From a phage: a stretch of DNA of 39,329 nt. This document shows, piece after piece, positions 1-25,511 of the stretch. The stretch is from sequence record PZ402303.1. One strand, written 5' to 3'. The notes beneath the pieces are model-generated. The model did no database searches and was not told the DNA's origin. It saw only the letters and a program-made list of their open reading frames with translations. Numbering within the stretch: the first letter of the stretch is position 1; every line of letters begins with the position of its first letter. The position numbers and the translations under genes are program-made.

Positions 1-207
1 ATGTTGTCATTGGATTTTAACAACGAGGTAGTGAAGGCTGCTCCGATTGTAGGGACAGGGGTTGCCGATGGTGCTGCCAGACTGTTCTTCGGCCTGTCAC
101 TTAACGAGTGGTTCTATGTAGCCGCAATTGCCTACACAGTGGCTCAAATTGGTGCCAAGGTAGTCGATGTGATTATCAAATGGAAGAAGGAGGGTAAAGA
201 TGTCTAA
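1..207 (+). CDS. 17.5: Type II holin (T7 gp17.5-like), 68 aa
   Basis: Near-identical to recalled T7 gp17.5 (MLSLDFNNE...FYVAAIAYT); RBS AGGAGG lies at the window end (39315-39320), consistent with circular permutation. Confidence 0.85.
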   Translation: MLSLDFNNEVVKAAPIVGTGVADGAARLFFGLSLNEWFYVAAIAYTVAQIGAKVVDVIIKWKKEGKDV

Positions 208-469
208 TGATAAATCTTTGATTCAATTCCTTGAGATGCTGGACACTGAGATGGCTCAACGTATGCTGAAAGACCTTCAGGATGACGAGAAGCGCACACC
301 TCAACTGTACAACGCAATCGGGAAACTATTAGAGCGCCACAAGTTCCAAGTCTCCAAGTTACAGCCAGACCGTAACATCCTTGGTGGACTGGCAGATGGA
401 CTCGAAGAGTACCAGAACATGGTAGGTGCCGACGGTCTCACTGAAGATGAGAAGTACACGCTGAACTGA
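200..469 (+). CDS. 18: Small terminase subunit / DNA maturase A (gp18-like), 89 aa
   Basis: Same size and position as T7 gp18; RBS AAGGAGGG upstream; start overlaps holin stop. Confidence 0.85.
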   Translation: MSNDKSLIQFLEMLDTEMAQRMLKDLQDDEKRTPQLYNAIGKLLERHKFQVSKLQPDRNILGGLADGLEEYQNMVGADGLTEDEKYTLN

Positions 470-473
470 TGGA

Positions 474-516
474 ATAACTCAAGGCCACTACATCTAGTGG
501 TCTTTATGATATTTCA
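474..516 (+). promoter_or_regulatory. RNase III-type processing hairpin (R18.5-like)
   Basis: Motif aactcaaggCCACTAcatcTAGTGGtctttatgat; member of a 7-copy family with the shared motif ctcaaggtc...ggcctttatgat. Confidence 0.55.
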
Positions 517-567
517 ACACAACTCACGGTGACGCTACGTGAAATCTGAAAATACGGGAGGGTAGTT

Positions 568-1011
568 ATGCTCAAGAATTTAAAGAGCTACGCCATAATC
601 GCTGCGTTTGCCTTGGGTATTACCCTTGCGTATAACCACGGATATGACAAAGCTAACACTAAATGGGAACAGGAGGTGCACAATGAGTACGTTAAGAAAG
701 TTGAGGCGACTGCGGATAAACAGGCTGCTCTCAATGAAGTCTCACGACAATACCAAGAAGACCTTGCGGCGCTGGAAGGCAGCACTGATAGGGTCATTAA
801 TGATTTGCGTAACGATGGTAAGCGGCTGCGTGTCAAACTATCAGCCACCTCACGAGAACTCCAAGCTAACGGTGGATGCCTCGTTGATGGTCGAGCCGAA
901 CTTGACGAAGAGTTTAGTAAGCGTCTTATCGGAGTAACTCAAAGAGGGGATGCGTGGATTAAAGCGCTCCAAAATACAATAACTGAAATACAATCTAAGA
1001 AGGAGAAATAA
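568..1011 (+). CDS. 18.5: Rz-like inner-membrane spanin (gp18.5-like), 147 aa
   Basis: N-terminal TM helix, coiled-coil body, position after gene 18; RBS GGGAGGG. Confidence 0.85.
   Translation: MLKNLKSYAIIAAFALGITLAYNHGYDKANTKWEQEVHNEYVKKVEATADKQAALNEVSRQYQEDLAALEGSTDRVINDLRNDGKRLRVKLSATSRELQANGGCLVDGRAELDEEFSKRLIGVTQRGDAWIKALQNTITEIQSKKEK
683..937 (+). CDS. 18.7: Rz1-like outer-membrane lipoprotein spanin (gp18.7-like) embedded in +1 frame of 18.5, 84 aa
   Basis: ATG at 683 preceded by AGGAGG; lipobox-like VSGC; Pro-rich C-terminal part; embedded arrangement as in T7 Rz/Rz1. Confidence 0.8.
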   Translation: MSTLRKLRRLRINRLLSMKSHDNTKKTLRRWKAALIGSLMICVTMVSGCVSNYQPPHENSKLTVDASLMVEPNLTKSLVSVLSE

Positions 1012-1012
1012 T

Positions 1013-1570
1013 ATGGCTGCTACAAACTCAAGAACCCGCACACTCTGGACCATCAATGGTCGCTCACCAGACAGTCGTGATGTGTATGACCACAACAATA
1101 TTGGTATTCGCGTTGGGCGTATCGACATCCCAGCTTCGGAGATGGTCAAGGTAGATGGCTACTCTAAGGTTGAATACGTTGTTCAACTTAGCGATGGCAC
1201 CACTGAGCAACATGCTACGTTCGAGACCCTTATGTCCACTTGGGGTGGCTCCGTCGAGTCTAAGCCGGGAAGCGGGTTCATGACGGTGTTCCTGAATGAG
1301 CAAAGCACTGAGCGACTCGGTATGGTTCGAATCGACGTATACAAAGAGTGGACTGGTGCTGACCCTGAACCTGAAGGTGGCATGGCTTCCTTAGTTAGCG
1401 CAACGCTTTCTGCGTCTGATAGTGAATTTGGTACACAGTTCGTGGATAGCGAAGGGAAGAGCGCTTCCGTTATGTTCCAACCTAGTAACATCGACGGGGC
1501 TGTATCTAAGACCGACACTATCAAGGCTCTTGAGAAGCGCATTGATGCCTTAGAGAAATCTGCCAAGTAA
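1013..1570 (+). CDS. Hypothetical protein, 185 aa, no recognised family; mildly acidic, beta-rich with C-terminal amphipathic helix (KALEKRIDALEKSAK)
   Basis: Strong RBS AAGGAG 7 nt upstream of ATG; tightly packed between 18.5 stop (1011) and gene 19 RBS; no counterpart at this locus in T7 as I recall it. Confidence 0.7.
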   Translation: MAATNSRTRTLWTINGRSPDSRDVYDHNNIGIRVGRIDIPASEMVKVDGYSKVEYVVQLSDGTTEQHATFETLMSTWGGSVESKPGSGFMTVFLNEQSTERLGMVRIDVYKEWTGADPEPEGGMASLVSATLSASDSEFGTQFVDSEGKSASVMFQPSNIDGAVSKTDTIKALEKRIDALEKSAK

Positions 1571-1585
1571 CAATAGGAGGCCACA

Positions 1586-3343
1586 ATGTCTACTCAAGCA
1601 AACAAGAATGCGCTCATCGTGGCGCAACTTAAGGGTGACTTCGTGGCCTTCCTGTTCGTCTTATGGAAGGCTCTGAACTTACCTAAACCAACCAAGTGTC
1701 AGATTGATATGGCACGTACACTCGCTAATGGCGACCACAAGAAGTTTATCCTACAGGCGTTCCGTGGTATCGGCAAGTCCTTTATCACCTGTGCGTTCGT
1801 CGTGTGGGTCTTATGGCGTGACCCTCAACTTAAGGTGCTCATCGTGTCTGCCTCTAAGGAACGTGCTGATGCTAACTCCATCTTCATCAAGAACATCATC
1901 GACCTCCTTCCGTTCCTCTCTGAGTTGAAACCTCGACCGGGACAGCGAGACTCCGTGATTAGCTTCGACGTTGGCTTGGCGAAACCAGACCACTCACCCT
2001 CTGTGAAGTCTGTAGGCATTACTGGTCAGTTGACTGGTAGCCGTGCTGACATTATCATCGCAGATGACGTTGAGGTTCCCGGCAACAGTTCTACAAGCTC
2101 TGCTCGTGAGAAGCTGTGGACACTGGTAACTGAGTTTGCTGCGTTACTTAAGCCGTTACCTACCTCTCGTGTTATCTACCTTGGGACACCTCAAACCGAG
2201 ATGACTCTCTATAAGGAACTTGAGGATAACAAAGGGTACAGCACGGTAATCTGGCCAGCACAGTATCCACGTAATGATGCTGAGGCTCTCTACTATGGGG
2301 ACCGCTTGGCTCCGATGCTTAAGGCTGAATACGATGAGGGCTATGAGTTACTTCGTGGTCAACCTACTGACCCTGTTCGATTCGATATGGATGACCTCCG
2401 TGAACGTGAACTCGAATATGGCAAAGCTGGCTACACTCTTCAGTTCATGCTTAACCCGAACCTTAGTGATGCCGAGAAGTACCCGCTACGGCTCCGTGAC
2501 GCTATCGTGTGCGCTGTGGACCCCGAACGTGCCCCATTGTCTTACCAGTGGTTGCCGAACCGTCAGAACCGCAATGAGGAACTCCCTAACGTTGGTCTTA
2601 AGGGTGATGACATCCATGCGTTCCATACGTGCTCTTCTCGTACCGCTGAGTATCAGTCTAAGATTCTGGTCATTGACCCAAGTGGTCGTGGTAAGGATGA
2701 GACCGGGTACGCAGTCCTCTACTCACTTAACGGTTATATCTACTTGATGGAAGTCGGTGGGTTCCGTGGTGGTTACGATGATGCTACCCTAGAGAAGCTC
2801 GCTAAGAAGGCCAAGCAGTGGAAGGTACAGACAGTCGTCCATGAGTCCAACTTCGGTGACGGTATGTTCGGTAAGATTTTCTCTCCGATTCTCCTGAAGC
2901 ACCATAAGTGTGCCTTAGAGGAAATCCGTGCTAAGGGCATGAAGGAGATGCGAATCTGCGATACTATCGAACCGTTGATGGGTGCGCACAAGCTGGTAAT
3001 TCGTGATGAGGTTATTCGTGAGGACTACCAGACTGCTCGTGACCTTGATGGGAAACATGATGTTCGCTATAGTGCGTTCTATCAGATGACCCGTATGACC
3101 CGTGAGCGAGGCGCTGTGGCACACGATGACCGACTTGATGCTATCGCATTGGGTATCGAATGGCTACGCGAGGGGATGCTTGTAGACAGCCGTGTAGGTG
3201 AAGAAGAGATGACCCTTGAGTTCCTTGAACACCACATGGAGAAACAGACCATTGGTGGCGACCAGATTCATAGCTATGATGTAGGAGGTGTGGACATCTA
3301 CTATGAGGACGATGGGGACTCTAGCAGCTTCATTGAGTGGTAA
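1586..3343 (+). CDS. 19: Large terminase subunit / DNA maturase B (gp19), 585 aa
   Basis: High similarity to recalled T7 gp19 ([30 protein letters not shown]...TSFIEW); Walker A-like GIGKS. Confidence 0.95.
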
Positions 3344-3432
3344 TATAGATAAGTATGCGGGAAAGGTGCATAGGTAAGCACTTAGTACCGCTACGTTACC
3401 GTTAAGTAACTTACTGATATACATGAAGAAAT

Positions 3433-3455
3433 TAATACGACTCACTATTGGGAAG
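3433..3455 (+). promoter_or_regulatory. Phage RNAP promoter (phiOR-like)
   Basis: TAATACGACTCACTATT-GGGAAG. Confidence 0.75.
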
Positions 3456-3611
3456 GGCACCCTAAGACAACTTAAAGACACTTAAAGACTGCATATGCAA
3501 AGTGCATACTTAGTGACTACTCTTAGAGACCCTTACAGTGTGGGATGATAGTAATTGTAATTACATCCCTACTATCAGTGTAACCATCAAGTATAACAAG
3601 GAGGACGCTCT

Positions 3612-3767
3612 ATGCGCTTACTATCCGTGCTCAAGACACTGGCAACGCATCGAGTGACCTACAAATTTCTCGCTGTACTTGCTGCTTCCATCGGTCTCGC
3701 ATCTAGTGTTGAACACATCGGTGAACTGGAGACTCTGCTTTGTTCTCTACTCACTTGTGTTCCTTAG
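3612..3767 (+). CDS. Small protein, 51 aa (positional gp19.5 analogue)
   Basis: Strong RBS AAGGAGG 7 nt upstream; downstream of phiOR as gene 19.5 is in T7; not on ORF track because under 60 aa. Confidence 0.5.
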   Translation: MRLLSVLKTLATHRVTYKFLAVLAASIGLASSVEHIGELETLLCSLLTCVP

Positions 3768-3998
3768 ACTGCTCGTTGGCGCTTAACGCGCTCTTAGTGA
3801 TTATGGTCGATATACATCTTCCCTATAATCACTGTAAGAAGTCAACTCTAAGAGGTAGCCTTATGTATTCCTTAACGGTCTACAGGGTCTCTTAGGGTCT
3901 CTCACGTGGTCTAACCTTATGATAGCCACTCCAAGGATAACCTTATGAGAGACTTGATGTACCCCTTTAAGAATCCTACAGAAAAATCTGAGTGGGTA

Positions 3999-4175
3999 TC
4001 TCATAGTTCATACCAAGTGGTTTCCCCCCTGTAGGTAACTCTGTGGATAACCTGAGGATAACTCTGTGGATAACTTGTGGATAACTCTAGGTTAGAGGCT
4101 GTGTGGATAACTTTGGGTGAGACTGTTAGTAACTCTGTGGATAACTCTGTGTCTCTGTGTCCCTATCTGTAAGTG
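3999..4175. repeat. Probable terminal repeat of the linear virion genome (concatemer junction copy), boundaries approximate
   Basis: Begins TCTCATAG...TTTCCCCCCTGTAGG and ends GTGTCTCTGTGTCCCTATCTGT, resembling recalled T7 TR start and end; internal (a)actctgtggataac direct repeats; flanked by ccttatg-type short-repeat arrays (about 3860-3950 and 4185-4250). Confidence 0.45.
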
Positions 4176-4323
4176 ACCTTTGAGTTATCACCTTATGTTA
4201 TCACCTTATGACCCTTTAAGTATCACCTTATGGCTGGTTATCCTTATGTTAACCTTCAGTCGGTGCCTTCAGTCCATAGACCTATCGTTGCCACTCTTAG
4301 ACCAGCCTTAAATACCATACAGC

Positions 4324-4346
4324 TAATATGACTCACTATTGAGGAA
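4324..4346 (+). promoter_or_regulatory. Phage RNAP promoter (phiOL-like, degenerate)
   Basis: TAATATGACTCACTATT-GAGGAA. Confidence 0.6.
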
Positions 4347-4429
4347 TAGCTAATACTGGTCATCTTCCTTATAGGGATAACTTAAAGACTACTAAAAGAG
4401 ATACTTTGAGAATTCTTTAAGATTGAGTA

Positions 4430-4458
4430 TTGACATTGATAATAGCTTATGAGACTAT
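4430..4458 (+). promoter_or_regulatory. Host sigma70 early promoter candidate (A1-like)
   Basis: -35 TTGACA at 4430-4435; weak -10 (GACTAT) at about 17 nt spacing. Confidence 0.4.
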
Positions 4459-4564
4459 AGCAACCGTTGAGAGACACAACGCTACCAACCACTAGACAAG
4501 ACCGAGAGTTATCTAGTGAGGCTGAAGAGTCTCAAGTAGTCATCAACCAGACACACGAAAGTGG

Positions 4565-4593
4565 TTGACTCAACGAAAGCAATAACGTAGTAT
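4565..4593 (+). promoter_or_regulatory. Host sigma70 promoter candidate
   Basis: -35 TTGACT (4565-4570), 17-nt spacer, -10 TAGTAT (4588-4593). Confidence 0.45.
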
Positions 4594-4654
4594 AGCAGTC
4601 GTCAACAACTGGTCGCCCTCTGAAACAACATGAGGTGTCACGGTGAGAAAGGTG

Positions 4655-4684
4655 TTGACAAGCAGTAAAGATAAGATGTAAGAT
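4655..4684 (+). promoter_or_regulatory. Host sigma70 early promoter (A2-like)
   Basis: -35 TTGACA, 18-nt spacer, -10 TAAGAT; same architecture as recalled T7 A2. Confidence 0.6.
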
Positions 4685-4814
4685 GTACGACATGCAATAA
4701 GAGAGAACGGATAGGAACTGCGAAACCTGCCGGATACTCGCCAAGGATGAGGCACTGCTTATTGGAGTATGCAGACACGATAAGCACCACGTTATCTTCT
4801 AGTCAAATTAAGTG

Positions 4815-4843
4815 TTGACACGGTAACGAAAGCACGATAAGAT
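4815..4843 (+). promoter_or_regulatory. Host sigma70 early promoter (A3-like)
   Basis: -35 TTGACA, 17-nt spacer, -10 TAAGAT; downstream cagtgagtcaccacactgaaaggtgatgcggtctaacgaaacctgacc matches recalled T7 early leader. Confidence 0.6.
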
Positions 4844-4965
4844 GTACCACGAAATGACGGAACAGTGAGTCACCACACTGAAAGGTGATGCGGTCTAACG
4901 AAACCTGACCAAAGACGCTCTTTAACAATCTGGATAATAGCTCTTGAGTGTACCGTATAAGCGAA

Positions 4966-5008
4966 TAACTCAAGGTCGCACTGAAAGCGTGGCCTTTATG
5001 ATATTCAC
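4966..5008 (+). promoter_or_regulatory. RNase III-type processing hairpin (R0.3-like)
   Basis: aactcaaggtcgcactgaaagcgtggcctttatgatattcac. Confidence 0.6.
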
Positions 5009-5036
5009 TTAACGAACTAACATGAGGTAACACCTA

Positions 5037-5495
5037 ATGATTTTCACTAAAGAGCCTGCTAATGTCTTCTATGTACTGGTGTCAGCTTTCCGTTCCAACC
5101 TCGACGATGAGGTGAATATGAGTCGTCACCGCCACATGGTAAGCACTTTACGTGCCGCACCGGGTCTTTATGGCTCCGTTGAGTCAACCGATTTGACCGG
5201 GTGCTATCGTGAGGCAATCGCAAGCGCACCGACTGAGGAAAAAACGGTTCGTGTACGCTGCAAGGACAAGGCGCAGGCACTCAATGTTGCACGCTTAGCT
5301 TGCAATGAGTGGGAGCAAGATTGCGTACTGGTATACAAATCACAGACTCACACGGCTGGTCTGGTGTACGCTAAAGGAATCGACGGTTACAAGGCTGAAC
5401 GTCTGCCGGGTAGCTTCCAAGAAGTGCCTAAAGGCGCACCGCTTCAAGGTTGCTTTACGATTGATGAGTTCGGTCGCCGCTGGCAAGTACAGTAA
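5037..5495 (+). CDS. 0.3: S-adenosyl-L-methionine-cleaving anti-restriction protein (T3-type gene 0.3 SAMase / SAM lyase), 152 aa
   Basis: Near-identical over full length to recalled T3 SAMase (MIFTKEPANVFYVLVSAFRSNL...GRRWQVQ); first early gene after A promoters; RBS GAGGT. Confidence 0.9.
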   Translation: MIFTKEPANVFYVLVSAFRSNLDDEVNMSRHRHMVSTLRAAPGLYGSVESTDLTGCYREAIASAPTEEKTVRVRCKDKAQALNVARLACNEWEQDCVLVYKSQTHTAGLVYAKGIDGYKAERLPGSFQEVPKGAPLQGCFTIDEFGRRWQVQ

Positions 5496-5500
5496 GTGAT

Positions 5501-5565
5501 AAACTCAAGGTCGCTCAATATGAGTGGCCTTTCATGATTATCAGAGTGGCCTTTCATGATTATCA
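5501..5565 (+). promoter_or_regulatory. RNase III-type hairpin (R0.5-like) with a 22-bp tandem duplication of its 3' arm
   Basis: aaactcaaggtcgctcaatat then gagtggcctttcatgattatca twice (5522-5543 and 5544-5565). Confidence 0.5.
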
Positions 5566-5593
5566 CTTTGAAACAACGCACGGGATTAATATC

Positions 5594-5731
5594 ATGCTGA
5601 AACATTACGTCATGCCTATCCACACCAAGAACGGCGCTACAGTTTGCACACCTGATGGCTTCGCAATGAAACAACGAATCGAACGCCTTAAGCGTGAACT
5701 GCGCACAAATCGCAAGATCAACAATATCTAA
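5594..5731 (+). CDS. Small basic early protein, 45 aa
   Basis: ATG at 5594 within track ORF 5534..5731; weak SD (GGGA); occupies the 0.4-0.6 slot; basic C-terminus RIERLKRELRTNRK. Confidence 0.35.
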   Translation: MLKHYVMPIHTKNGATVCTPDGFAMKQRIERLKRELRTNRKINNI

Positions 5732-5836
5732 ATCTAATTACATTTGACACTGGATAATGCACGAAGTGAGCGCTAGCGACATCATGGGCGCTCTCTCTCC
5801 CTCTTAAAGTAAACTAACTAAATAGGACACAATCTA

Positions 5837-6934
5837 ATGAACTACACCGACATTCAGGCACGTCTGGCAATCATCAAGTCTCTCCCGATTAGTGAACTGG
5901 ACAAGCGCCAGCCTCTTTTGGTTGCACTGGCTGCTGACATCGTGAACGGTGAAACATGCGATGGTGACGATACAAACGGGTCGCAGTGTCTTGAGTATCA
6001 GGACTGGTGGAACACCTTGGGCGCTCTCATGCGTGATGCAGGTTTTCGTATGTTGGGTAATGGTCATTTTAGTGCGGCCTACTCGCATGAACTGTTACCG
6101 GGTCGAGTCGTCAAGGTTGGCTTTAAGAAAGAGGATTCAGGCGCTGCGTACACTGCGTTCTGTAGGATGCACCAAGGCCGAGCGGGTATCCCTAACGTCT
6201 ATCACGTAGCACGTCATGCAGGTTGCTATACGGTCGTACTGGACCACTTAAAAAGCTGTGACGACGATAATTATGACCATGAGGCATACGCTGACCTCGC
6301 ACGTTACTTTGTGGAGTCGGATTGCCATGACGCAAGCGACTTTGCACCGGGTGACTACGAGTTCATCGAGACTTGCAAAATGATTCGTGAGTTCTTCAAA
6401 GGGATTGCATCTTTCGACATGCATCGCGGGAACATTATGTTCGACGATAACGATGTTCCGTACATCACTGACCCGGTTAGTTTCTCACATGACCGTGAAC
6501 GTGAGGGCGGTTTGCCTCTGGACCCTGAAGAACTGCTGGCTGAGGTCGAGGCTGTAGCGCAAGAACGCATGATTGAACGTTGCCGCAACCGCAAGGCCAA
6601 GTGTGACCCTAACGGCTCCTTTCAGGTTAACCGCAAGGCCGCAATGAAACGCCGCAAGCGTAACCGTAAGTTACGTGCTAAACATGCAGCGGAAGGAATG
6701 CACCAGTTTGTCAAAGGGCGGCTTGAGCGTAGAGCTATTGACCGAAATGAACGCCGTGCTGAGATGTTTATGGGGTCTGCATGGCATTACGCATGGTTGC
6801 ATAATGGTAACGCAACGTTCCGCAAGGTTGAACAAGTGAACGGCCTCAAGTGGCAACTAGGGGACCACCTAGCAATCCAAGCGGGTCTCCCTTTGAACAT
6901 CGACAAGTTACTTGACGCACAACTGAAAGGCTGA
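5837..6934 (+). CDS. 0.7: Ser/Thr protein kinase with host-shutoff C-terminal domain (gp0.7), 365 aa
   Basis: Strong similarity to recalled T7 gp0.7 (...ELDKRQ...GFKMLGNGHFSAAYSH...KVGFKKEDSGAAYTAFCRM...IPNVY...HAGCYTVVLD...). Confidence 0.9.
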   Translation: MNYTDIQARLAIIKSLPISELDKRQPLLVALAADIVNGETCDGDDTNGSQCLEYQDWWNTLGALMRDAGFRMLGNGHFSAAYSHELLPGRVVKVGFKKEDSGAAYTAFCRMHQGRAGIPNVYHVARHAGCYTVVLDHLKSCDDDNYDHEAYADLARYFVESDCHDASDFAPGDYEFIETCKMIREFFKGIASFDMHRGNIMFDDNDVPYITDPVSFSHDREREGGLPLDPEELLAEVEAVAQERMIERCRNRKAKCDPNGSFQVNRKAAMKRRKRNRKLRAKHAAEGMHQFVKGRLERRAIDRNERRAEMFMGSAWHYAWLHNGNATFRKVEQVNGLKWQLGDHLAIQAGLPLNIDKLLDAQLKG

Positions 6935-6943
6935 TAAGGTGTA

Positions 6944-6984
6944 TCTTCAAGGTCGGCACTGACTGCTGGCCTTTATAGATAAAC
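6944..6984 (+). promoter_or_regulatory. RNase III-type hairpin (R1-like)
   Basis: tcttcaaggtcggcactgactgctggcctttatagataaac. Confidence 0.55.
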
Positions 6985-7007
6985 TTTCTTAACAACGTGA
7001 GGCAACA

Positions 7008-9659
7008 ATGACTAACGTAATCAACGCACCAAAGAACGACTTCTCTGACATCGCTAACGCAATCATGCCGTACAACATTCTGGCTGACCATTACGGTGCA
7101 CAGCTTGCAGCTACGCAGTTACAGCTTGAGCACGAAGCGCACACTGAGGGTGAGAAGCGTTTTCTTAAGGCAATGGAACGTCAAATCAAAGCGGGTGAGT
7201 TCGGTGATAACGCAGTGGCTAAACCGCTCCTGTCATCTCTCGCACCGAAGTTTATCGAGGCGTGGAACACTTGGTTCACTGAAGTGGAAGCGAAGCGTGG
7301 CAAGCGTCCAGTGGCTTACAATCTGGTACAGAAGGTTGCACCTGAAGCTGCTGCATTCATCACACTGAAGGTCACGCTGGCTTGCTTGACGAAAGAAGAG
7401 TTCACCAACCTGCAATCGGTCGCTACTAAGATTGGTCGTAGCATTGAAGATGAACTGCGTTTTGGTCGCATCCGTGACGAAGAAGCGAAGCACTTTAAGA
7501 ACCACGTACAGGAGGCACTGAACAAGCGCGTTGGCATCGTCTACAAGAAAGCATTCATGCAAGCCGTAGAGGGTAAGATGCTTGATGCTGGTCAACTGCA
7601 AACCAAGTGGACTACATGGACACCTGAAGAATCAATTCACGTTGGTGTGCGCATGTTGGAACTGCTCATCGGGTCTACTGGTCTCGTTGAGTTACACCGC
7701 CCGTTCGCTGGGAACATCGAGAAGGATGGCGAGTACATCCAGTTAACAGAACAATATGTAGACCTGCTGTCTAAACGTGCTGGTGCACTGGCTGCAATCG
7801 CTCCGATGTATCAGCCTTGCGTGGTCCCTCCGAAGCCTTGGACTTCTCCGGTTGGTGGTGGCTATTGGGCGGCTGGTCGCAAGCCTCTCTCTCTGGTTCG
7901 TACTGGTAGCAAGAAGGGACTGGAACGTTACAACGATGTGTACATGCCTGAAGTTTACAAGGCGGTGAACATCGCACAGAATACTCCTTGGAAGATTAAC
8001 AAGAAGGTTCTGGCAGTGGTCAACGAGATTGTGAACTGGAAGCATTGCCCGGTTGAAGATGTACCTGCTCTCGAACGTGGTGAACTGCCTGTCAAACCTG
8101 AAGACATCGACACGAACGAAGCGGCTCTGAAAGCGTGGAAGAAAGCGGCCTCCGCAATCTATCGCAAAGAGAAAGCACGAGTTTCTCGCCGCATGAGCAT
8201 GGAGTTCATGTTAGGTCAGGCCAATAAGTTCGCACAGTTCAAAGCTATCTGGTTCCCAATGAACATGGACTGGCGCGGTCGTGTGTATGCTGTGCCGATG
8301 TTTAACCCGCAAGGCAACGACATGACCAAAGGCTTGTTGACGCTCGCTAAAGGTAAACCAATCGGTGTCGATGGGTACTACTGGCTGAAGATTCACGGTG
8401 CTAACACTGCTGGCGTGGACAAGGTGGACTTTGCAGAACGCATCAAGTTCATTGATGACAACCATGAGAACATCATGAGCGTAGCTGCTGACCCGATTGC
8501 TAACACTTGGTGGGCCGAGCAAGACTCTCCGTTCTGCTTCCTCGCGTTCTGCTTCGAGTATGCAGGAGTCCAGCACCACGGGATGAACTACAACTGCTCT
8601 CTTCCGCTGGCGTTTGATGGTAGCTGCTCCGGTATTCAGCACTTCTCCGCAATGCTTCGTGATGAAATTGGTGGTCGCGCTGTTAACTTACTGCCGAGCA
8701 AGGAAGTCCAAGACATCTACCGCATCGTAGCGGAACGTGTCAACGAGATTCTGAACCAAGATGTTATCAACGGGACCGACAACGAAGTAGAGACCGTGAC
8801 CAACAAGGACACAGGGGAAATCACTGAGAAGCTCAAGCTGGGTACTAAAGAACTAGCTGGTCAGTGGCTGGCCTACGGTGTGACCCGCAAGGTCACTAAG
8901 CGTTCGGTTATGACGTTGGCTTACGGTTCCAAAGAGTACGGATTCCGTGACCAAGTTCTTGAGGATACCATTCAGCCAGCTATCGACGATGGCAAGGGCT
9001 TGATGTTCACTCAACCGAACCAAGCGGCTGGCTATATGGCTAAACTGATTTGGAACGCGGTAACGGTGACAGTGGTCGCAGCGGTTGAAGCAATGAACTG
9101 GCTGAAGTCTGCGGCTAAACTTCTAGCTGCTGAAGTCAAGGACAAGAAGACCAAAGAGGTTCTCCGCAAGCGCTGCGCGGTACATTGGGTTACTCCTGAT
9201 GGCTTCCCGGTCTGGCAGGAATACAAGAAGCCAGTACAGACCCGCTTGAACCTGATGTTCTTAGGCCAGATTCGTCTACAGCCTACCGTGAACACCAACA
9301 AGGATAGCGGAATTGATGCTCGTAAGCAGGAGTCAGGCATCGCACCTAACTTTGTCCACTCAATGGATGGAAGCCACCTGCGCATGACTGTGGTCCGCTC
9401 CAATGAGGTCTACGGTGTGGAATCGTTCGCACTGATTCACGACTCCTTTGGTACTATCCCTGCTGATGCTGGCAACCTGTTTAAAGCAGTGCGCGAAACG
9501 ATGGTCAACACTTACGAAGAGAACGATGTACTAGCAGACTTCTATGAGCAATTTGCTGACCAGTTACATGAATCACAGCTTGACAAGATGCCTGAGATGC
9601 CAGCTAAAGGTTCTCTGGACCTGCAAGAAATCCTTAAGTCAGACTTTGCGTTTGCCTAA
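7008..9659 (+). CDS. 1: Single-subunit DNA-directed RNA polymerase (gp1), 883 aa
   Basis: Same length as T7 RNAP; conserved blocks PCVVPPKPW, WFPYNMDWRGRVYAV-like, DGSCSGIQHFSAMLRDE, HDSFGT, C-terminal FAFA. Confidence 0.97.
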   Translation: MTNVINAPKNDFSDIANAIMPYNILADHYGAQLAATQLQLEHEAHTEGEKRFLKAMERQIKAGEFGDNAVAKPLLSSLAPKFIEAWNTWFTEVEAKRGKRPVAYNLVQKVAPEAAAFITLKVTLACLTKEEFTNLQSVATKIGRSIEDELRFGRIRDEEAKHFKNHVQEALNKRVGIVYKKAFMQAVEGKMLDAGQLQTKWTTWTPEESIHVGVRMLELLIGSTGLVELHRPFAGNIEKDGEYIQLTEQYVDLLSKRAGALAAIAPMYQPCVVPPKPWTSPVGGGYWAAGRKPLSLVRTGSKKGLERYNDVYMPEVYKAVNIAQNTPWKINKKVLAVVNEIVNWKHCPVEDVPALERGELPVKPEDIDTNEAALKAWKKAASAIYRKEKARVSRRMSMEFMLGQANKFAQFKAIWFPMNMDWRGRVYAVPMFNPQGNDMTKGLLTLAKGKPIGVDGYYWLKIHGANTAGVDKVDFAERIKFIDDNHENIMSVAADPIANTWWAEQDSPFCFLAFCFEYAGVQHHGMNYNCSLPLAFDGSCSGIQHFSAMLRDEIGGRAVNLLPSKEVQDIYRIVAERVNEILNQDVINGTDNEVETVTNKDTGEITEKLKLGTKELAGQWLAYGVTRKVTKRSVMTLAYGSKEYGFRDQVLEDTIQPAIDDGKGLMFTQPNQAAGYMAKLIWNAVTVTVVAAVEAMNWLKSAAKLLAAEVKDKKTKEVLRKRCAVHWVTPDGFPVWQEYKKPVQTRLNLMFLGQIRLQPTVNTNKDSGIDARKQESGIAPNFVHSMDGSHLRMTVVRSNEVYGVESFALIHDSFGTIPADAGNLFKAVRETMVNTYEENDVLADFYEQFADQLHESQLDKMPEMPAKGSLDLQEILKSDFAFA

Positions 9660-9666
9660 CGGAATC

Positions 9667-9689
9667 TAATACGACTCACTATTGGGAGA
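9667..9689 (+). promoter_or_regulatory. Phage RNAP promoter (phi1.05/phi1.1A-like)
   Basis: TAATACGACTCACTATT-GGGAGA followed by 5' hairpin GGGAGACCC..GGGTTTCCC. Confidence 0.8.
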
Positions 9690-9750
9690 CCCTTGGGGGT
9701 TTCCCTACTTTAAGATAACTTTAAGTTTAACTTTAAGAGGAAACATAATC

Positions 9751-10308
9751 ATGTTTACTTTCATCACTTCAGTAGGCGCTCTCGTAGCAACCATTCTTGC
9801 AGCAACATACTACAACCGTTCAAAGGTATTTCTCACCAAGCTAATCAAAGAAGAGAAGAACTCTCACGCACTCAAAGAGAGACTTGAAGATGGGTGGCTA
9901 GAGAGGCAGGAACTAGCTGGTCGAATCCGTACTTTAGAGTTCGAACAACAATATGACATGTCGAACCAACGAGAACTCATTGAGCGTCTACGCGCTGAGG
10001 CAATGGAGTACCGCAAGGAACTTAAAGAGGCAAAGAGTACCATCCGTGAGTACACATACAGTGACATCACGTCTATCAAGTTTACTGCTCACATCCCGGA
10101 TGCTGGATGGAAGCGCACTGAGTTCAAGCTAGGCATAGGGTCTTGCGGCAAAGAGGTTACGTGTTTGCACTGGAAAGAACAGTCGGACCGCTACCTGCTG
10201 ACACAGACGTGCACTGATGGTGAGCGCAAAGAGTTCACCTATTATAAGAAAGACGTAGCTGGTCGCATTGAGATTGCACGTAAGGTTGCAGACAATACGA
10301 CTCACTAA
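9751..10308 (+). CDS. Hypothetical membrane-anchored coiled-coil protein, 185 aa (positional analogue of T3-lineage gene 1.05)
   Basis: ATG at 9751 with RBS AAGAGG; N-terminal hydrophobic helix (FTFITSVGALVATILAATYY), charged coiled-coil segment, C-terminal domain with 3 Cys; the track ORF start at 9682 is a TTG inside the promoter. Confidence 0.7.
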   Translation: MFTFITSVGALVATILAATYYNRSKVFLTKLIKEEKNSHALKERLEDGWLERQELAGRIRTLEFEQQYDMSNQRELIERLRAEAMEYRKELKEAKSTIREYTYSDITSIKFTAHIPDAGWKRTEFKLGIGSCGKEVTCLHWKEQSDRYLLTQTCTDGERKEFTYYKKDVAGRIEIARKVADNTTH

Positions 10309-10315
10309 TGGGAAA
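10293..10315 (+). promoter_or_regulatory. Phage RNAP promoter (phi1.1B-like)
   Basis: CAATACGACTCACTAAT-GGGAAA; overlaps the last codons of the preceding CDS. Confidence 0.75.
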
Positions 10316-10324
10316 CACTGAAAG

Positions 10325-10366
10325 TTAAACTCAAGGTCATCTACATGGTGGCCTTCATGATTAACT
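10325..10366 (+). promoter_or_regulatory. RNase III-type hairpin (R1.1-like)
   Basis: aaactcaaggtcatctacatggtggccttcatgattaac. Confidence 0.55.
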
Positions 10367-10397
10367 GTCAACGATACTACCAAGAGGAAATAACATT

Positions 10398-10547
10398 ATG
10401 CGTACCAACTTTGAACCAACCACTAAGCGCAACAACATCATCAATGAACATGGTGCTGAATGGCAGGAACGTAAAGACCGCATGAAGAAACGTCACAAGA
10501 CACAACGTGGCAACTCTGAGAAACGCAACTGGAAGGAGGCACTCTAA
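10398..10547 (+). CDS. 1.1: Small basic protein gp1.1-like, 49 aa
   Basis: RBS AAGAGGAAA; MRTNFEPTTKRNN...; stop overlaps gene 1.2 start (TAATG); under track threshold. Confidence 0.6.
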   Translation: MRTNFEPTTKRNNIINEHGAEWQERKDRMKKRHKTQRGNSEKRNWKEAL

Positions 10548-10819
10548 TGGGTCGCTTATACAGTGGTAACTTAATAGCATACAAAGACGCTATCGAACGG
10601 CTTAAAGAAGACCACGATGCAAATGTGGTCGTTGAGACTTATCGCTATGAGGACTTCACACAGCGACGGATGGTCGCCGGAGAGACACTTCGAGTGGTCT
10701 TACGGGATGGCTTAATGCTGACCGCTAAGTGTTTCGAACAGGACGACGAAGACGTTCGTTGCAATGCACAGACTGAATGGCTTCGTAAGGTACACAACGA
10801 CCTGAAGCACTGGAAGTAA
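10547..10819 (+). CDS. 1.2: gp1.2-like protein (host dGTPase inhibitor family), 90 aa
   Basis: N-terminus MGRLYSGNL and C-terminus L.DWK-like as in recalled T7 gp1.2; RBS GGAAGGAGG. Confidence 0.8.
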   Translation: MGRLYSGNLIAYKDAIERLKEDHDANVVVETYRYEDFTQRRMVAGETLRVVLRDGLMLTAKCFEQDDEDVRCNAQTEWLRKVHNDLKHWK

Positions 10820-10839
10820 TACGACTCACTATTGCGAGA
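10817..10839 (+). promoter_or_regulatory. Phage RNAP promoter (phi1.3-like)
   Basis: TAATACGACTCACTATT-GCGAGA. Confidence 0.75.
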
Positions 10840-10924: not shown

Positions 10925-11956
10925 ATGGAAATCACATTCAAGACTAACCCATTCAAAGCAGTATCCTACGTTGAGTCTGCCATTAAGAAAGCACTCGACA
11001 AGGCTGGCTACCTGATTGCTGACACTAAGCATGATGGTGTACGTGGTAACATCGTGGTTGACAATACGGCTGACTGCCTGTGGCTGTCCCGTGTCTCCAA
11101 GACCATCCCCGCGCTTGAGCACCTTAATGGGTTCGACCAACGCTGGGCTAATGTTCTCAAAGATGACCGCTGGATTTTCCCTGATGGCTTCATGCTTGAT
11201 GGTGAACTGATGGTCAAAGGTGTTGACTTCAACACAGGGTCTGGCCTACTGCGTACCAAGTGGCTCAAGAAGACGAACTGTGGATTTGATATTGGTGGAG
11301 TAGAGCCTCTCAAGGGGAGTAAAGTAGACTTCTGCTTAGACCCTAAGAAACTTAAGGTTGTCCTGTATGCCGCTATGCCGTATCACGATATGGTAGAAGG
11401 CAAAGAGTATGGCGTTATGTCCCTCCTGATGCAAGAGCATGTGCGTTCCCTCATTCCGGTTCTTAGTGAACACTTCCCGGAAATCACTTGGGAACTCTCT
11501 GAGGCCAAAGAAGTCTACGACATGGTAGAACTTCAGGAACTCTACGAGAAAGCCCGTGCCGATGGTCATGAAGGTCTGGTCGTCAAAGACCCGCTTGAAG
11601 TCTACAAGCGTGGCAAGAAGTCTGGCTGGTGGAAGATGAAGCCTGAGAATGAAGCTGATGGTATTATCGTTGGCCTCAATTGGGGTACTCCGGGTCTGGC
11701 TAATGAAGGTAAAGTGATTGGCTTCGAGGTTCTCTTGGAGTCCGGTCGTGTAGTCTCTGCCAACAACATTAGCCAAGCGTTGATGGATGAGTTCACTGCT
11801 GCCGTCAAACATGCTGAGTCTGTGGGTATGGGTATGCCGTACACTGGCTTCGCCTGTCAGGTTGCCTACATGGAGGAAACTCCAGACGGTTCTCTGCGTC
11901 ACCCATCGTTCGTTATGTTCCGTGGAACTGAGGATAACCCAAAGGAGAAAATGTAA
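10925..11956 (+). CDS. 1.3: ATP-dependent DNA ligase (gp1.3), 343 aa
   Basis: Adenylation motif K-H-D-G (TKHDGVRGN); high similarity to recalled T7 ligase including C-terminal YMEETPDGSLRHPSFVMFRGTEDNP. Confidence 0.95.
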   Translation: MEITFKTNPFKAVSYVESAIKKALDKAGYLIADTKHDGVRGNIVVDNTADCLWLSRVSKTIPALEHLNGFDQRWANVLKDDRWIFPDGFMLDGELMVKGVDFNTGSGLLRTKWLKKTNCGFDIGGVEPLKGSKVDFCLDPKKLKVVLYAAMPYHDMVEGKEYGVMSLLMQEHVRSLIPVLSEHFPEITWELSEAKEVYDMVELQELYEKARADGHEGLVVKDPLEVYKRGKKSGWWKMKPENEADGIIVGLNWGTPGLANEGKVIGFEVLLESGRVVSANNISQALMDEFTAAVKHAESVGMGMPYTGFACQVAYMEETPDGSLRHPSFVMFRGTEDNPKEKM

Positions 11957-25488: not shown

Positions 25489-25511
25489 TAATACGACTCA
25501 CTATTGGGAGA
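25489..25511 (+). promoter_or_regulatory. Phage RNAP promoter (phi10-like, exact consensus)
   Basis: TAATACGACTCACTATT-GGGAGA. Confidence 0.85.

What the first reader, a model, noticed from the sequence alone, without database searches (positions are those of the whole stretch)
9667..10315. Membrane-anchored coiled-coil early protein between two phage promoters downstream of gene 1
In T7 the two promoters after gene 1 (phi1.1A/B) are about 75 bp apart and form the primary replication origin, as I recall. Here the equivalent promoters (+1 at 9684 and 10310) are 626 bp apart and enclose a 185-aa gene. Its product has one N-terminal TM helix, a charged coiled-coil stretch (RQELAGRIRTLEFEQQ...ELIERLRAEAMEYRKELKEAK) and a C-terminal domain with three Cys. 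T3-lineage phages carry an uncharacterised gene 1.05 in this slot, from memory. An early, membrane-targeted protein is a plausible superinfection-exclusion, host-envelope or anti-defence factor, and its position inside the putative origin suggests transcription-coupled replication initiation passes through it.
Basis: partly seen in the sequence, partly recalled or inferred. Interest (0 to 1): 0.6.

Follow-up and report, generated by a model that had tools for sequence, protein, structure and literature searches.

The report
Phage gene 1.05, membrane-anchored, function unknown
This is a real, already annotated accessory gene (gene 1.05) of a T7-like Berlinvirus phage. It encodes a membrane-anchored helical stalk carrying a small conserved beta-barrel whose function nobody has determined, so the finding is correct but ordinary.

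Summary
Two phage-RNA-polymerase promoters (9667-9689, +1 at 9684; 10293-10315, +1 at 10310) flank a 185-aa ORF (9751-10308). The window is a Berlinvirus genome, 99.9% identical to Escherichia phage nasanit over the 821 bases compared. The ORF is "gene 1.05", already annotated in BA14, Kvp1 and 285P, with promoters named phi1.05 and phi1.1.

Residues 106-176 match Pfam PF25755 (Phage_T3_1_05, E 1e-29). This domain occurs in 587 phage records and about 200 representative clusters. All annotated carriers are Autographiviridae and all are uncharacterised.

dN/dS is 0.05-0.13 in the barrel at dS 0.55-0.84, so the protein is translated and selected. The N-terminal half is a recombining cassette. 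The gene is dispensable, because T7 and Yersinia phage Berlin lack it.

The AT-rich element that matches the annotated T3 origin is the gene's 5' leader, not the gene body. T7 carries the two promoter modules in the opposite order.

Function is unknown. My best guess is a multimeric, membrane-tethered binder of a conserved cytoplasmic partner. It is already known as a family, and interest is low to moderate.

The parts
9667..9689 (+). Phage RNA polymerase promoter phi1.05 (TAATACGACTCACTATTGGGAGA), +1 at 9684. It is identical to the copy at 25489-25511.
   Evidence: The homologous site is annotated 'promoter phi1.05' in BA14 and Kvp1 and in T3.
9684..9705 (+). 5' stem-loop of the phi1.05 transcript (9-bp stem, tetraloop).
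   Evidence: RNA fold of 9684-9770: MFE -23.8 kcal/mol, z -2.89, 0 of 200 shuffles as stable. Conserved with compensating changes in PP74, BP12A, PYPS50 and Berlin.
9690..9750 (+). AT-rich leader (GC 0.32-0.33) with three ACTTTAAG repeats at 9707, 9718 and 9730, spaced 11-12 bp apart. It aligns with the annotated T3 primary origin and with T7's AT-rich region after phi1.1B. It also carries the Shine-Dalgarno AAGAGGA (about 9736-9742).
   Evidence: The T3 rep_origin annotation directly follows phi1.05. Origin activity here is inferred, not tested.
9751..10308 (+). Gene 1.05 CDS, 185 aa plus stop.
   Evidence: Annotated as gene 1.05 in BA14, Kvp1 and 285P. dN/dS 0.05-0.19.
9751..9813 (+). Residues 1-21, hydrophobic N-terminal membrane anchor. 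No charged residue precedes it and 4 K/R lie in the next 15 residues. Predicted N-out/C-in.
   Evidence: Kyte-Doolittle 19-residue mean 1.88. A hydrophobic N-terminus scoring at least 1.6 is present in 30 of the 33 close homologues despite sequence divergence.
9814..10056 (+). Residues 22-102, long charged helix (17 K/R and 17 D/E in the 79 residues 24-102) with a heptad-like hydrophobic period. Presumed coiled-coil stalk. It is a recombining cassette.
   Evidence: AlphaFold2 helix 2-102 with pLDDT 90-95. Periodicity z 2.2 here and up to 6.6 in homologues. Nucleotide identity is 26-52% to Carena, BP12A and PP74 while the flanks are mostly 84-100%.
10060..10281 (+). Residues 104-177, PF25755 (Phage_T3_1_05) six-stranded small beta-barrel. 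Family signature: F-x-L-G-x-G-x-C-G-K-x-V ... Q ... D-G ... K-x-F-x-Y ... G-R-I-E.
   Evidence: Pfam E 1.1e-29, 102.6 bits against a cutoff of 27. Domain model pLDDT 87, pTM 0.71. Invariant residues. dN/dS 0.05-0.13.
10293..10315 (+). Phage promoter phi1.1 (CAATACGACTCACTAATGGGAAA), +1 at 10310. It overlaps the last four codons (N-T-T-H) and the stop codon of gene 1.05.
   Evidence: Annotated phi1.1 in BA14, Kvp1 and T3.
10319..10370 (+). Hairpin homologous to the RNase III processing site R1.1 of T7 and T3.
   Evidence: Fold (z only -1.67). An invariant block AAACT-AAGGTCAT...GTGGCCTT--TGATT-AC is shared with T7 and with the annotated T3 R1.1 stem-loop.
10398..10819 (+). Context: genes 1.1 (10398-10547) and 1.2 (10547-10819, dGTPase-inhibitor family), followed by promoter phi1.3 (10817-10839) and the ligase gene (10925-11956).

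Best explanation
The feature is gene 1.05 of a Berlinvirus (T7-like, Studiervirinae) phage. It is an accessory protein-coding gene sitting between promoter phi1.05 and promoter phi1.1.

Shown here:
- The gene is real and under purifying selection.
- It has a consensus promoter, a 5' stabilising stem-loop, an AT-rich CTTTAAG-repeat leader and a Shine-Dalgarno sequence.
- Its 3' end is embedded in phi1.1, and the conserved R1.1 hairpin follows.
- The product has three modules: a hydrophobic N-terminal anchor, a helix of about 80 residues with heptad character, and a conserved C-terminal small beta-barrel of about 73 residues (PF25755).
- The beta-barrel is the conserved unit. The anchor-plus-stalk is an exchangeable cassette that other family members lack.

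Inferred:
- Topology is N-out/C-in, so the stalk and barrel are cytoplasmic.
- The stalk multimerises the protein.
- Several barrels are held at the inner face of the cytoplasmic membrane. There they bind, and thereby sequester or relocalise, a partner conserved across Proteobacteria or across the phages themselves. The partner could be a protein, a nucleic acid or a nucleotide.
- The gene improves fitness on some hosts but is not needed for the core cycle.
For: Identity:
- 99.9% nucleotide identity to phage nasanit. The gene is annotated as gene 1.05 / 'fusion protein with gene 1.05' in BA14, Kvp1 and 285P.
- PF25755 match, E 1e-29. PHROG 8103 and 6440, both of unknown function.

Real protein:
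- Barrel dN/dS is 0.05-0.13 at dS 0.55-0.84. The N-terminal half gives 0.13-0.19 where the cassette is shared.

Architecture:
- AlphaFold2 models, hydropathy and flanking charges, heptad periodicity.

Cytoplasmic domain:
- 62 of 178 representatives are the bare domain with no signal sequence, T3 gp1.05 among them.
- Every TM-bearing member has no K/R before the anchor and nearly all have K/R after it. The phage's own N-in/C-out spanin gp18.5 has two Lys before its TM segment.

Modularity:
- The N-terminal half is unalignable between phages whose flanks are about 84-100% identical.
- Coiled-coil-only and bare forms exist.

Dispensability:
- The gene is absent from T7 and from Yersinia phage Berlin.

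Conserved target:
- The domain occurs in 587 phage records infecting Klebsiella, Escherichia, Salmonella, Yersinia, Pectobacterium, Pseudomonas, Aeromonas and Ralstonia.

Fold class:
Against: - There is no experimental or homology-based evidence for any partner.
- Topology rests on the positive-inside rule and on comparison with bare-domain relatives, not on a dedicated predictor or an experiment.
- Heptad periodicity in this particular protein is modest (z 2.2; 22 of 500 shuffles reach it).
- The anchor is only moderately hydrophobic and is rich in Thr and Ser.
- Metagenomic variants that keep the anchor and stalk but lack the barrel could mean the N-terminal module has a function of its own. 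They could also simply be gene decay.
Confidence: 0.5

Rival explanations
1. Anti-defence factor. The barrel binds an immune signalling nucleotide or a defence protein, and the membrane anchor brings it to membrane-located effectors.
For: The gene is accessory, early or middle, and patchily distributed. The N-terminal cassette is swapped by recombination. A small oligomerising beta module is compatible with a sponge-like binder. WYL-type barrels, which sense nucleic-acid ligands in defence regulators, are among the fold matches.
Against: The barrel is unusually conserved (dN/dS 0.05-0.13), unlike typical arms-race proteins. PADLOC gives no match. No paper reports an anti-defence role. Fold similarity is weak.
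Confidence: 0.15
2. Replication-linked factor. The barrel binds DNA or RNA at the adjacent origin, and the anchor tethers the origin or replisome to the membrane. The gene's position next to the origin would then be functional.
For: The leader aligns with the annotated T3 primary origin and with T7's AT-rich origin region. Homologues always flank the RNA polymerase gene. Sm/WYL-like barrels often bind single-stranded nucleic acid.
Against: T7 and Berlin replicate without the gene, and Berlin keeps the leader. The domain is close to neutral in charge (14 K/R against 12 D/E). In Pseudomonas phage G11 the homologue lies upstream of the polymerase gene, away from this element. Bare-domain and TM-less forms are common.
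Confidence: 0.1
3. Superinfection-exclusion or envelope factor. The C-terminal domain would be exposed in the periplasm (N-in/C-out) or would block incoming phage DNA at the membrane.
For: Early expression and a membrane anchor. The architecture superficially resembles Rz-type TM plus coiled-coil proteins.
Against: No positive charge precedes the anchor in any TM-bearing homologue. The domain also exists as a bare cytoplasmic protein with no signal sequence. There is no sequence similarity to the phage's i-spanin.
Confidence: 0.1
4. The ORF is not a functional gene. It would be an open frame or a decaying remnant within a regulatory or origin region.
For: The gene is missing from T7 and Berlin. 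Truncated variants exist in metagenomes.
Against: There is strong purifying selection with saturating synonymous change. The start codon and Shine-Dalgarno are conserved. The family spans 587 phage records. AlphaFold2 gives a confident fold. GC content of the coding region is normal.
Confidence: 0.02

Closest known systems
Gene 1.05 'fusion' proteins of Berlinvirus and Przondovirus phages (BA14 ACF15732, Kvp1 ACJ14549, 285P gp1.05, KP32 'fusion protein')
   Same: Same slot between gene 1 and gene 1.1. Same length (185 aa in BA14 and Kvp1). Same three-module architecture and same flanking promoters. The region is 92-96% identical at the nucleotide level.
   Different: Essentially nothing. The window gene is an allele of this annotated but uncharacterised gene.
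Bacteriophage T3 gene 1.05 protein (CAC86265, 90 aa; founder of Pfam PF25755)
   Same: Homologous beta-barrel, about 47% identical over 69 residues. Same position after phi1.05 and the origin-like leader. The stop codon lies inside phi1.1, followed by R1.1.
   Different: T3 has only a 17-residue N-terminal extension, with no TM anchor and no long helix. The annotated T3 origin overlaps its first codons.
T7 primary replication origin region (phi1.1A, R1.1, phi1.1B, AT-rich segment)
   Same: All sequence modules are recognisable in the window: promoter plus R1.1-type hairpin, and promoter plus CTTAAG-rich AT-rich segment.
   Different: The module order is reversed in T7, and T7 has no coding sequence between the promoters. 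Berlin has only the promoter plus AT-rich module.
Small beta-barrels of the Sm/SH3-like class (Hfq, Gemin6/7, WYL domains of BrxR/DriD/CapW, SspB, ribosomal L19)
   Different: No sequence relationship. Scores are below what would indicate homology. The family's G-x-G-x-C-G-K loop has no counterpart I could identify.
Rz-type i-spanins (the phage's own gp18.5, 568-1011)
   Same: N-terminal TM segment followed by a charged helical region.
   Different: No sequence similarity. The spanin has Lys residues before its TM segment (N-in/C-out) and lies in the lysis cassette. Gene 1.05 is in the early/class II region, has no o-spanin partner, and has a predicted cytoplasmic C-terminus.

Membership tests
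Pfam PF25755 Phage_T3_1_05 | HMM score above the curated gathering threshold | tested here: met
   102.6 bits against a cutoff of 27, E 1.1e-29, residues 106-176 covering profile positions 2-72 of 73. All 44 members of alignment A3 match only this family.
Pfam PF25755 Phage_T3_1_05 | Family-invariant residues (F125, G128, C132, Q152, F162, Y164, G171, R172) | tested here: met
   All are present in the window protein (alignment A3).
Gene 1.05 of T3-like/Berlinvirus phages (positional orthologue) | Located between the RNA polymerase gene and gene 1.1, preceded by promoter phi1.05 and overlapped at its 3' end by promoter phi1.1 | tested here: met
T7-group phage RNA polymerase promoter | 23-bp conserved sequence from -17 to +6, on the + strand, upstream of a gene | tested here: met
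   9667-9689 has 1 mismatch to the T7 consensus and is identical to another copy in the window. 10293-10315 carries the exact core. There are 13 core copies against 0.96 expected.
T7-group phage RNA polymerase promoter | Transcription initiation in vivo or in vitro | not testable with these tools
   Needs 5'-end mapping or run-off transcription.
T7/T3 primary origin of replication | Phage promoter followed by an AT-rich segment, homologous to a mapped origin | tested here: met
   The leader has GC 0.32-0.33. It aligns with the annotated T3 rep_origin and with T7's phi1.1B AT-rich segment.
T7/T3 primary origin of replication | Replication initiates there | not testable with these tools
   Requires replication-intermediate mapping.
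RNase III site R1.1 | Conserved irregular hairpin downstream of the promoter before gene 1.1 | tested here: met
   An invariant sequence block is shared with T7 and with the annotated T3 R1.1. A hairpin is predicted at 10319-10370 (z only -1.67). Cleavage itself was not tested.
Single-pass membrane protein | Hydrophobic segment of about 19-21 residues above the TM threshold | tested here: met
   Kyte-Doolittle 19-residue mean 1.88 against a usual threshold of about 1.6. Conserved as a property in 30 of 33 close homologues. No dedicated TM predictor was available.
Coiled coil | Heptad (3.5-residue) hydrophobic periodicity in a long helix | tested here: inconclusive
   Window protein: z 2.24, with 22 of 500 shuffles reaching it and best period 4.45. 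In 9 of 15 family members tested the best period is 3.45-3.55, with z up to 6.6. The oligomeric state was not modelled.
Rz-type i-spanin | N-in/C-out TM segment, periplasmic coiled coil, partner o-spanin, location in the lysis cassette | tested here: not met
   No similarity to gp18.5. The flanking charges are opposite. The gene is in the early/class II region and no embedded or adjacent lipoprotein gene is present.
Sm-like / Hfq / WYL small beta-barrels | Significant structural or sequence similarity | tested here: inconclusive
P-loop NTPase (Walker A, GxxxxGK[ST]) | The motif sits in a strand-loop-helix of an alpha/beta fold | tested here: not met
   G128-x4-G133-K134 is present, but it is followed by E/D/T/S/K and lies in a beta-hairpin of an all-beta domain.
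Known anti-phage defence / anti-defence catalogues | Match to a PADLOC model | tested here: not met
   0 families.

The most novel reading that the evidence does not exclude
PF25755 may be a previously unrecognised class of phage early effector. In this reading it is a small Sm-like barrel that captures a conserved host factor or a nucleic-acid or nucleotide ligand. Its potency or site of action would be tuned by exchangeable N-terminal modules (none, coiled coil, or membrane anchor plus coiled coil). The membrane-tethered form in this phage would sequester its target at the inner membrane.
Probability: 0.15. Interest if true: 0.6.

Novelty: already known. Interest (0 to 1): 0.25.

Why it matters
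Gene 1.05 belongs to a domain family present in hundreds of T7-like phages, including therapeutic Klebsiella phages and the model phage T3. No function has been assigned in the roughly 40 years since I recall it being named. If the barrel proves to bind a conserved host target or an immune signal, that would add a host-takeover or anti-defence module to the best-studied phage family. It would also explain why the localisation module is swapped so freely.

For this window specifically, nothing new is revealed. The gene, its promoters and its 'fusion' nature are already in public annotations.

One useful by-product is a clearer map of the region. The origin-like AT-rich element is the gene's leader. 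T7, T3/Berlinvirus-with-1.05 and phage Berlin represent three arrangements of the same promoter modules.

Tried and rejected
1. Sequence search of the full protein and of a 44-member domain profile against PDB found nothing below E 0.4.
3. PADLOC and NCBIfam gave no meaningful hit.
4. Literature searches for gp1.05, 'gene 1.05', PF25755, the phage name and generic terms returned only genome-annotation tables and one remark that Kvp1 and Berlin differ at gene 1.05.
5. I tested whether TM-less family members carry an amphipathic membrane-binding N-terminal helix. The hydrophobic moments are not above shuffles, so I rejected the idea.
6. I tested whether the barrel's conservation reflects a DNA-level (origin) constraint. 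It does not, because synonymous sites are as diverged as in neighbouring genes.
7. I considered a zinc or metal site formed by the three Cys. I rejected it because only one Cys is family-invariant.
8. Spanin-like identity was rejected.
9. I looked by eye for an internal start that would produce the barrel alone and found no convincing Shine-Dalgarno plus ATG.
10. In one search the control segment from the end of gene 1 was cut out of frame by my own error. Those rows should be ignored. Genes 1.1 and 1.2 serve as the controls.
11. A search with the N-terminal half alone returned only one protein, P0180, and for unclear reasons did not re-find the full-length relatives. It says little about the distribution of the module.

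Full report
**What is there**

The window is an almost complete, circularly permuted genome of a T7-like phage of the genus Berlinvirus. Region 9600-10420 is 99.9% identical to Escherichia phage nasanit and 92-98% identical to ErnstBeyeler, PhiV-1, P483, 285P, BA14 and Kvp1. The RNA polymerase gene occupies 7008-9659.

Downstream of it, the sequence reads in this order:
- a 23-bp phage promoter at 9667-9689 (TAATACGACTCACTATTGGGAGA, +1 at 9684)
- an AT-rich leader
- an ATG at 9751 preceded by AAGAGGAAAC
- an open frame of 185 codons ending with TAA at 10306-10308
- a second promoter at 10293-10315 (CAATACGACTCACTAATGGGAAA, +1 at 10310)

The promoter core ACGACTCACTA occurs 13 times in the window, always on the + strand. 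Shuffled sequence gives 0.96 on average.

**Already annotated**

The BA14 record names the promoters phi1.05 and phi1.1 and calls the CDS gene 1.05, 'fusion protein with gene 1.05'. Kvp1 calls it gene 1.05, 'similar to C-terminus of gene 1.05 protein [T3]'. 285P calls it gp1.05. The Kvp1 genome paper lists gene 1.05 among the regions that differ from phage Berlin (PMC2579914).

I found no functional study. Searches for gp1.05, 'gene 1.05' and PF25755 returned only annotation tables.

**The protein**

Pfam places residues 106-176 in PF25755, Phage_T3_1_05 (E 1.1e-29, 102.6 bits against a cutoff of 27). PHROGs gives families 8103 and 6440, both of unknown function.

AlphaFold2 on a 34-sequence alignment gives one continuous helix (residues 2-102) and a six-stranded beta domain (106-177), with mean pLDDT 88.7. 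A domain-only model from a 44-sequence alignment has pLDDT 87 and pTM 0.71.

- **Anchor.** The first 19 residues have a Kyte-Doolittle mean of 1.88. No charged residue precedes the segment and 4 of the next 15 residues are K/R. The same pattern (hydrophobic N-terminus, no K/R before it, K/R after it in nearly all) holds in 30 of the 33 close homologues, although their sequences differ widely.
- **Helix.** Residues 24-102 are 43% charged (17 K/R, 17 D/E). The 3.5-residue hydrophobic periodicity is modest in this protein (z 2.2). It is strong in most relatives, with z up to 6.6 and best period 3.45-3.55 in 9 of 15 tested.
- **Cysteines.** Only C132 is invariant across the family, so a metal-binding cluster is unlikely.

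**It is a real, selected protein**

I compared the window with five other Berlinviruses.
- In the barrel, dS is 0.55-0.84 and dN is 0.03-0.10, giving omega 0.05-0.13.
- In the N-terminal half, where the same cassette is present (BA14, Kvp1, PYPS50), omega is 0.13-0.19.
- Synonymous divergence in the barrel is as high as in genes 1.1 and 1.2, or higher. The conservation therefore acts on the protein, not on the DNA.

The coding region has ordinary GC content (0.42-0.57). Only the leader falls to 0.32-0.33.

**A modular, accessory gene**

A sliding comparison shows that 9800-10050 (the anchor and stalk) is unalignable (26-52% identity) in Carena, BP12A and PP74. Both flanks are mostly 84-100% identical in the same phages. 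This is a cassette exchanged by recombination.

A profile of the barrel searched against 1.84 billion representative proteins finds 203 clusters. Among the 178 representatives I could classify:
- 68 have an extension with a hydrophobic N-terminus
- 22 have an extension without one, mostly coiled-coil-like
- 62 are the bare domain, like the 90-aa T3 protein
- 26 did not match my simple motif

tblastn finds the domain in 587 phage records. Every carrier whose taxonomy I saw is in the Autographiviridae. Hosts include Klebsiella, Escherichia, Salmonella, Yersinia, Pectobacterium, Pseudomonas, Aeromonas and Ralstonia.

The gene normally sits beside the RNA polymerase gene. T7 and Yersinia phage Berlin lack it, so it is dispensable for the basic cycle. 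Two metagenomic variants keep the anchor and stalk but have lost the barrel (P0033 and P0180).

**Fold**

The domain is therefore a small beta-barrel of the general Sm/SH3-like shape, with no demonstrable homology to any of them. The viral structure library returns only uncharacterised family members.

The family signature is F-x-L-G-x-G-x-C-G-K-x-V ... Q ... D-G ... K-x-F-x-Y ... G-R-I-E. It superficially contains a GxxxxGK string, but this lies in a beta-hairpin and is not a Walker A motif.

**The regulatory region and the origin question**

The T3 record annotates, in order: promoter phi1.05, the 'primary origin of DNA replication' immediately after it (overlapping the first codons of gene 1.05), gene 1.05, promoter phi1.1 overlapping its stop codon, and RNase III site R1.1.

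The window has the same layout.
- **Transcript start.** The phi1.05 transcript begins with a 9-bp stem-loop (z -2.89).
- **Leader.** Three ACTTTAAG repeats follow at a spacing of 11-12 bp. This leader aligns with the T3 origin and with the AT-rich segment after T7 phi1.1B.
- **Downstream module.** The phi1.1 promoter and the hairpin at 10319-10370 align with T7 phi1.1A plus R1.1 and with T3 phi1.1 plus R1.1.

Three arrangements of the same modules therefore exist:
- T7 carries them in the order [promoter + R1.1][promoter + AT-rich].
- The window and T3 carry [promoter + AT-rich] - gene 1.05 - [promoter + R1.1].
- Berlin carries only [promoter + AT-rich], joined directly to the gene 1.1 start codon.

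The gene lies just downstream of the origin-like element rather than inside it.

Origin activity here is inferred from homology to the T3 annotation. It also rests on established knowledge that T7 initiates at a phage promoter followed by an AT-rich region. I recall this from Romano et al. 1981 and Fuller and Richardson 1985; I saw those papers only as entries in reference lists.

From memory, the TTAACTTTA-type repeats also resemble the translational enhancer of the T7 gene 10 leader. If so, the leader may serve expression as well as replication. I did not test this.

The last four codons (N-T-T-H) and the stop codon are dictated by the phi1.1 promoter sequence. This explains their conservation.

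**How it most likely works**

Shown: a strongly signalled class II gene that would also be read through from the early promoters. It encodes an anchor, a stalk and a conserved barrel.

Inferred:
- **Topology.** N-out/C-in. The bare-domain relatives have no export signal, so the domain must work in the cytoplasm. The charge distribution also agrees. By contrast, the phage's own N-in/C-out spanin has Lys residues before its TM segment.
- **Assembly.** The stalk multimerises, holding several barrels at the inner face of the membrane.
- **Partner.** The barrel is conserved across phages of many genera, while the localisation module is exchangeable and optional. I therefore think the barrel binds a partner that is itself conserved. 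It could be a host protein, a nucleic acid or a nucleotide. The anchored form would sequester or relocalise it.

I put about 0.9 on the identity and reality of the gene. I put about 0.6 on the topology and multimer picture, and about 0.25-0.3 on the sequestration mechanism.

Rivals are an anti-defence role (0.15), an origin- or replisome-tethering role (0.1), exclusion with a periplasmic domain (0.1) and a non-functional ORF (0.02). The evidence for and against each is listed in the structured fields.

**Verdict**

The feature is an already annotated member of a known but uncharacterised family. Interest is low to moderate. It is a reasonable target for someone working on T7-group accessory genes, but nothing in this window is surprising.

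Noticed in passing
window 1-7000 and 37357-39285: The window is a circular permutation of the linear phage genome. The i-spanin gp18.5 (568-1011), an unidentified 185-aa ORF (1013-1570) and the 585-aa ORF I take to be the large terminase (1586-3343) precede the early region. The 0.7 kinase is at 5837-6934 and the RNA polymerase gene at 7008-9659. The window ends with a 642-aa ORF (37357-39285), probably the tail fibre. The true genome ends and the terminal repeat should lie around 3400-4400.
   Followed up: partly
L012 (Yersinia phage Berlin NC_008694) 137-251: Berlin lacks gene 1.05, phi1.1 and R1.1 altogether. The same promoter and a leader with four ACTTTAAG repeats and one ACTCTAAG variant run directly into the gene 1.1 start codon. 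It looks like a clean ATG-to-ATG deletion, or conversely the insertion point of the 1.05 module.
   Followed up: yes
L011 (T7) 128-313 versus window 9660-9756 and 10286-10400: T7 carries the promoter plus R1.1 module before the promoter plus AT-rich module. The window and T3 have the reverse order. The region has been rearranged among T7-group genera, not merely expanded or contracted.
   Followed up: yes
P0033 (110 aa) and P0180 (84 aa; L019 685-939): These metagenomic relatives retain the membrane anchor and stalk but have lost the beta-barrel. P0033 joins the stalk directly to the last 15 residues (GRIEIARKVADNTTH). P0180 stops after the stalk and is followed by gene 1.1. This is either gene decay or a sign that the N-terminal module has a role of its own.
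   Followed up: partly
window 10150-10199 (residues about 134-150, ...KEVTCLHWKEQSDRYLL...): This is a local dip in nucleotide identity (60-70%) inside the otherwise conserved barrel, seen in five of the six compared phages. It corresponds to a variable hairpin or loop (positions 142-146) and could be a specificity surface.
   Followed up: no
window 10293-10308: The last four codons (AAT ACG ACT CAC) and the TAA stop of gene 1.05 are positions -16 to -2 of promoter phi1.1. T3 shows the same kind of overlap with its own promoter sequence. The C-terminal NTTH motif is therefore a promoter footprint, not a protein feature.
   Followed up: yes
window 9707-9738; L012 179-232: ACTTTAAG repeats are spaced about one helical turn apart in the leader, three copies here and four plus one ACTCTAAG variant in Berlin. 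From memory they resemble the TTAACTTTA translational-enhancer element of the T7 gene 10 leader. Whether they serve replication, translation or both is open.
   Followed up: partly
L017 (Pseudomonas phage vB_PaeM-G11) 3486-3773: In this distant Studiervirinae phage the PF25755 homologue (95 aa) lies immediately upstream of the RNA polymerase gene rather than downstream. The record also annotates an integrase and a 2-oxoglutarate dioxygenase in the early region.
   Followed up: no
whole window: An Rfam gathering-threshold scan of both strands found no known RNA family.
   Followed up: yes
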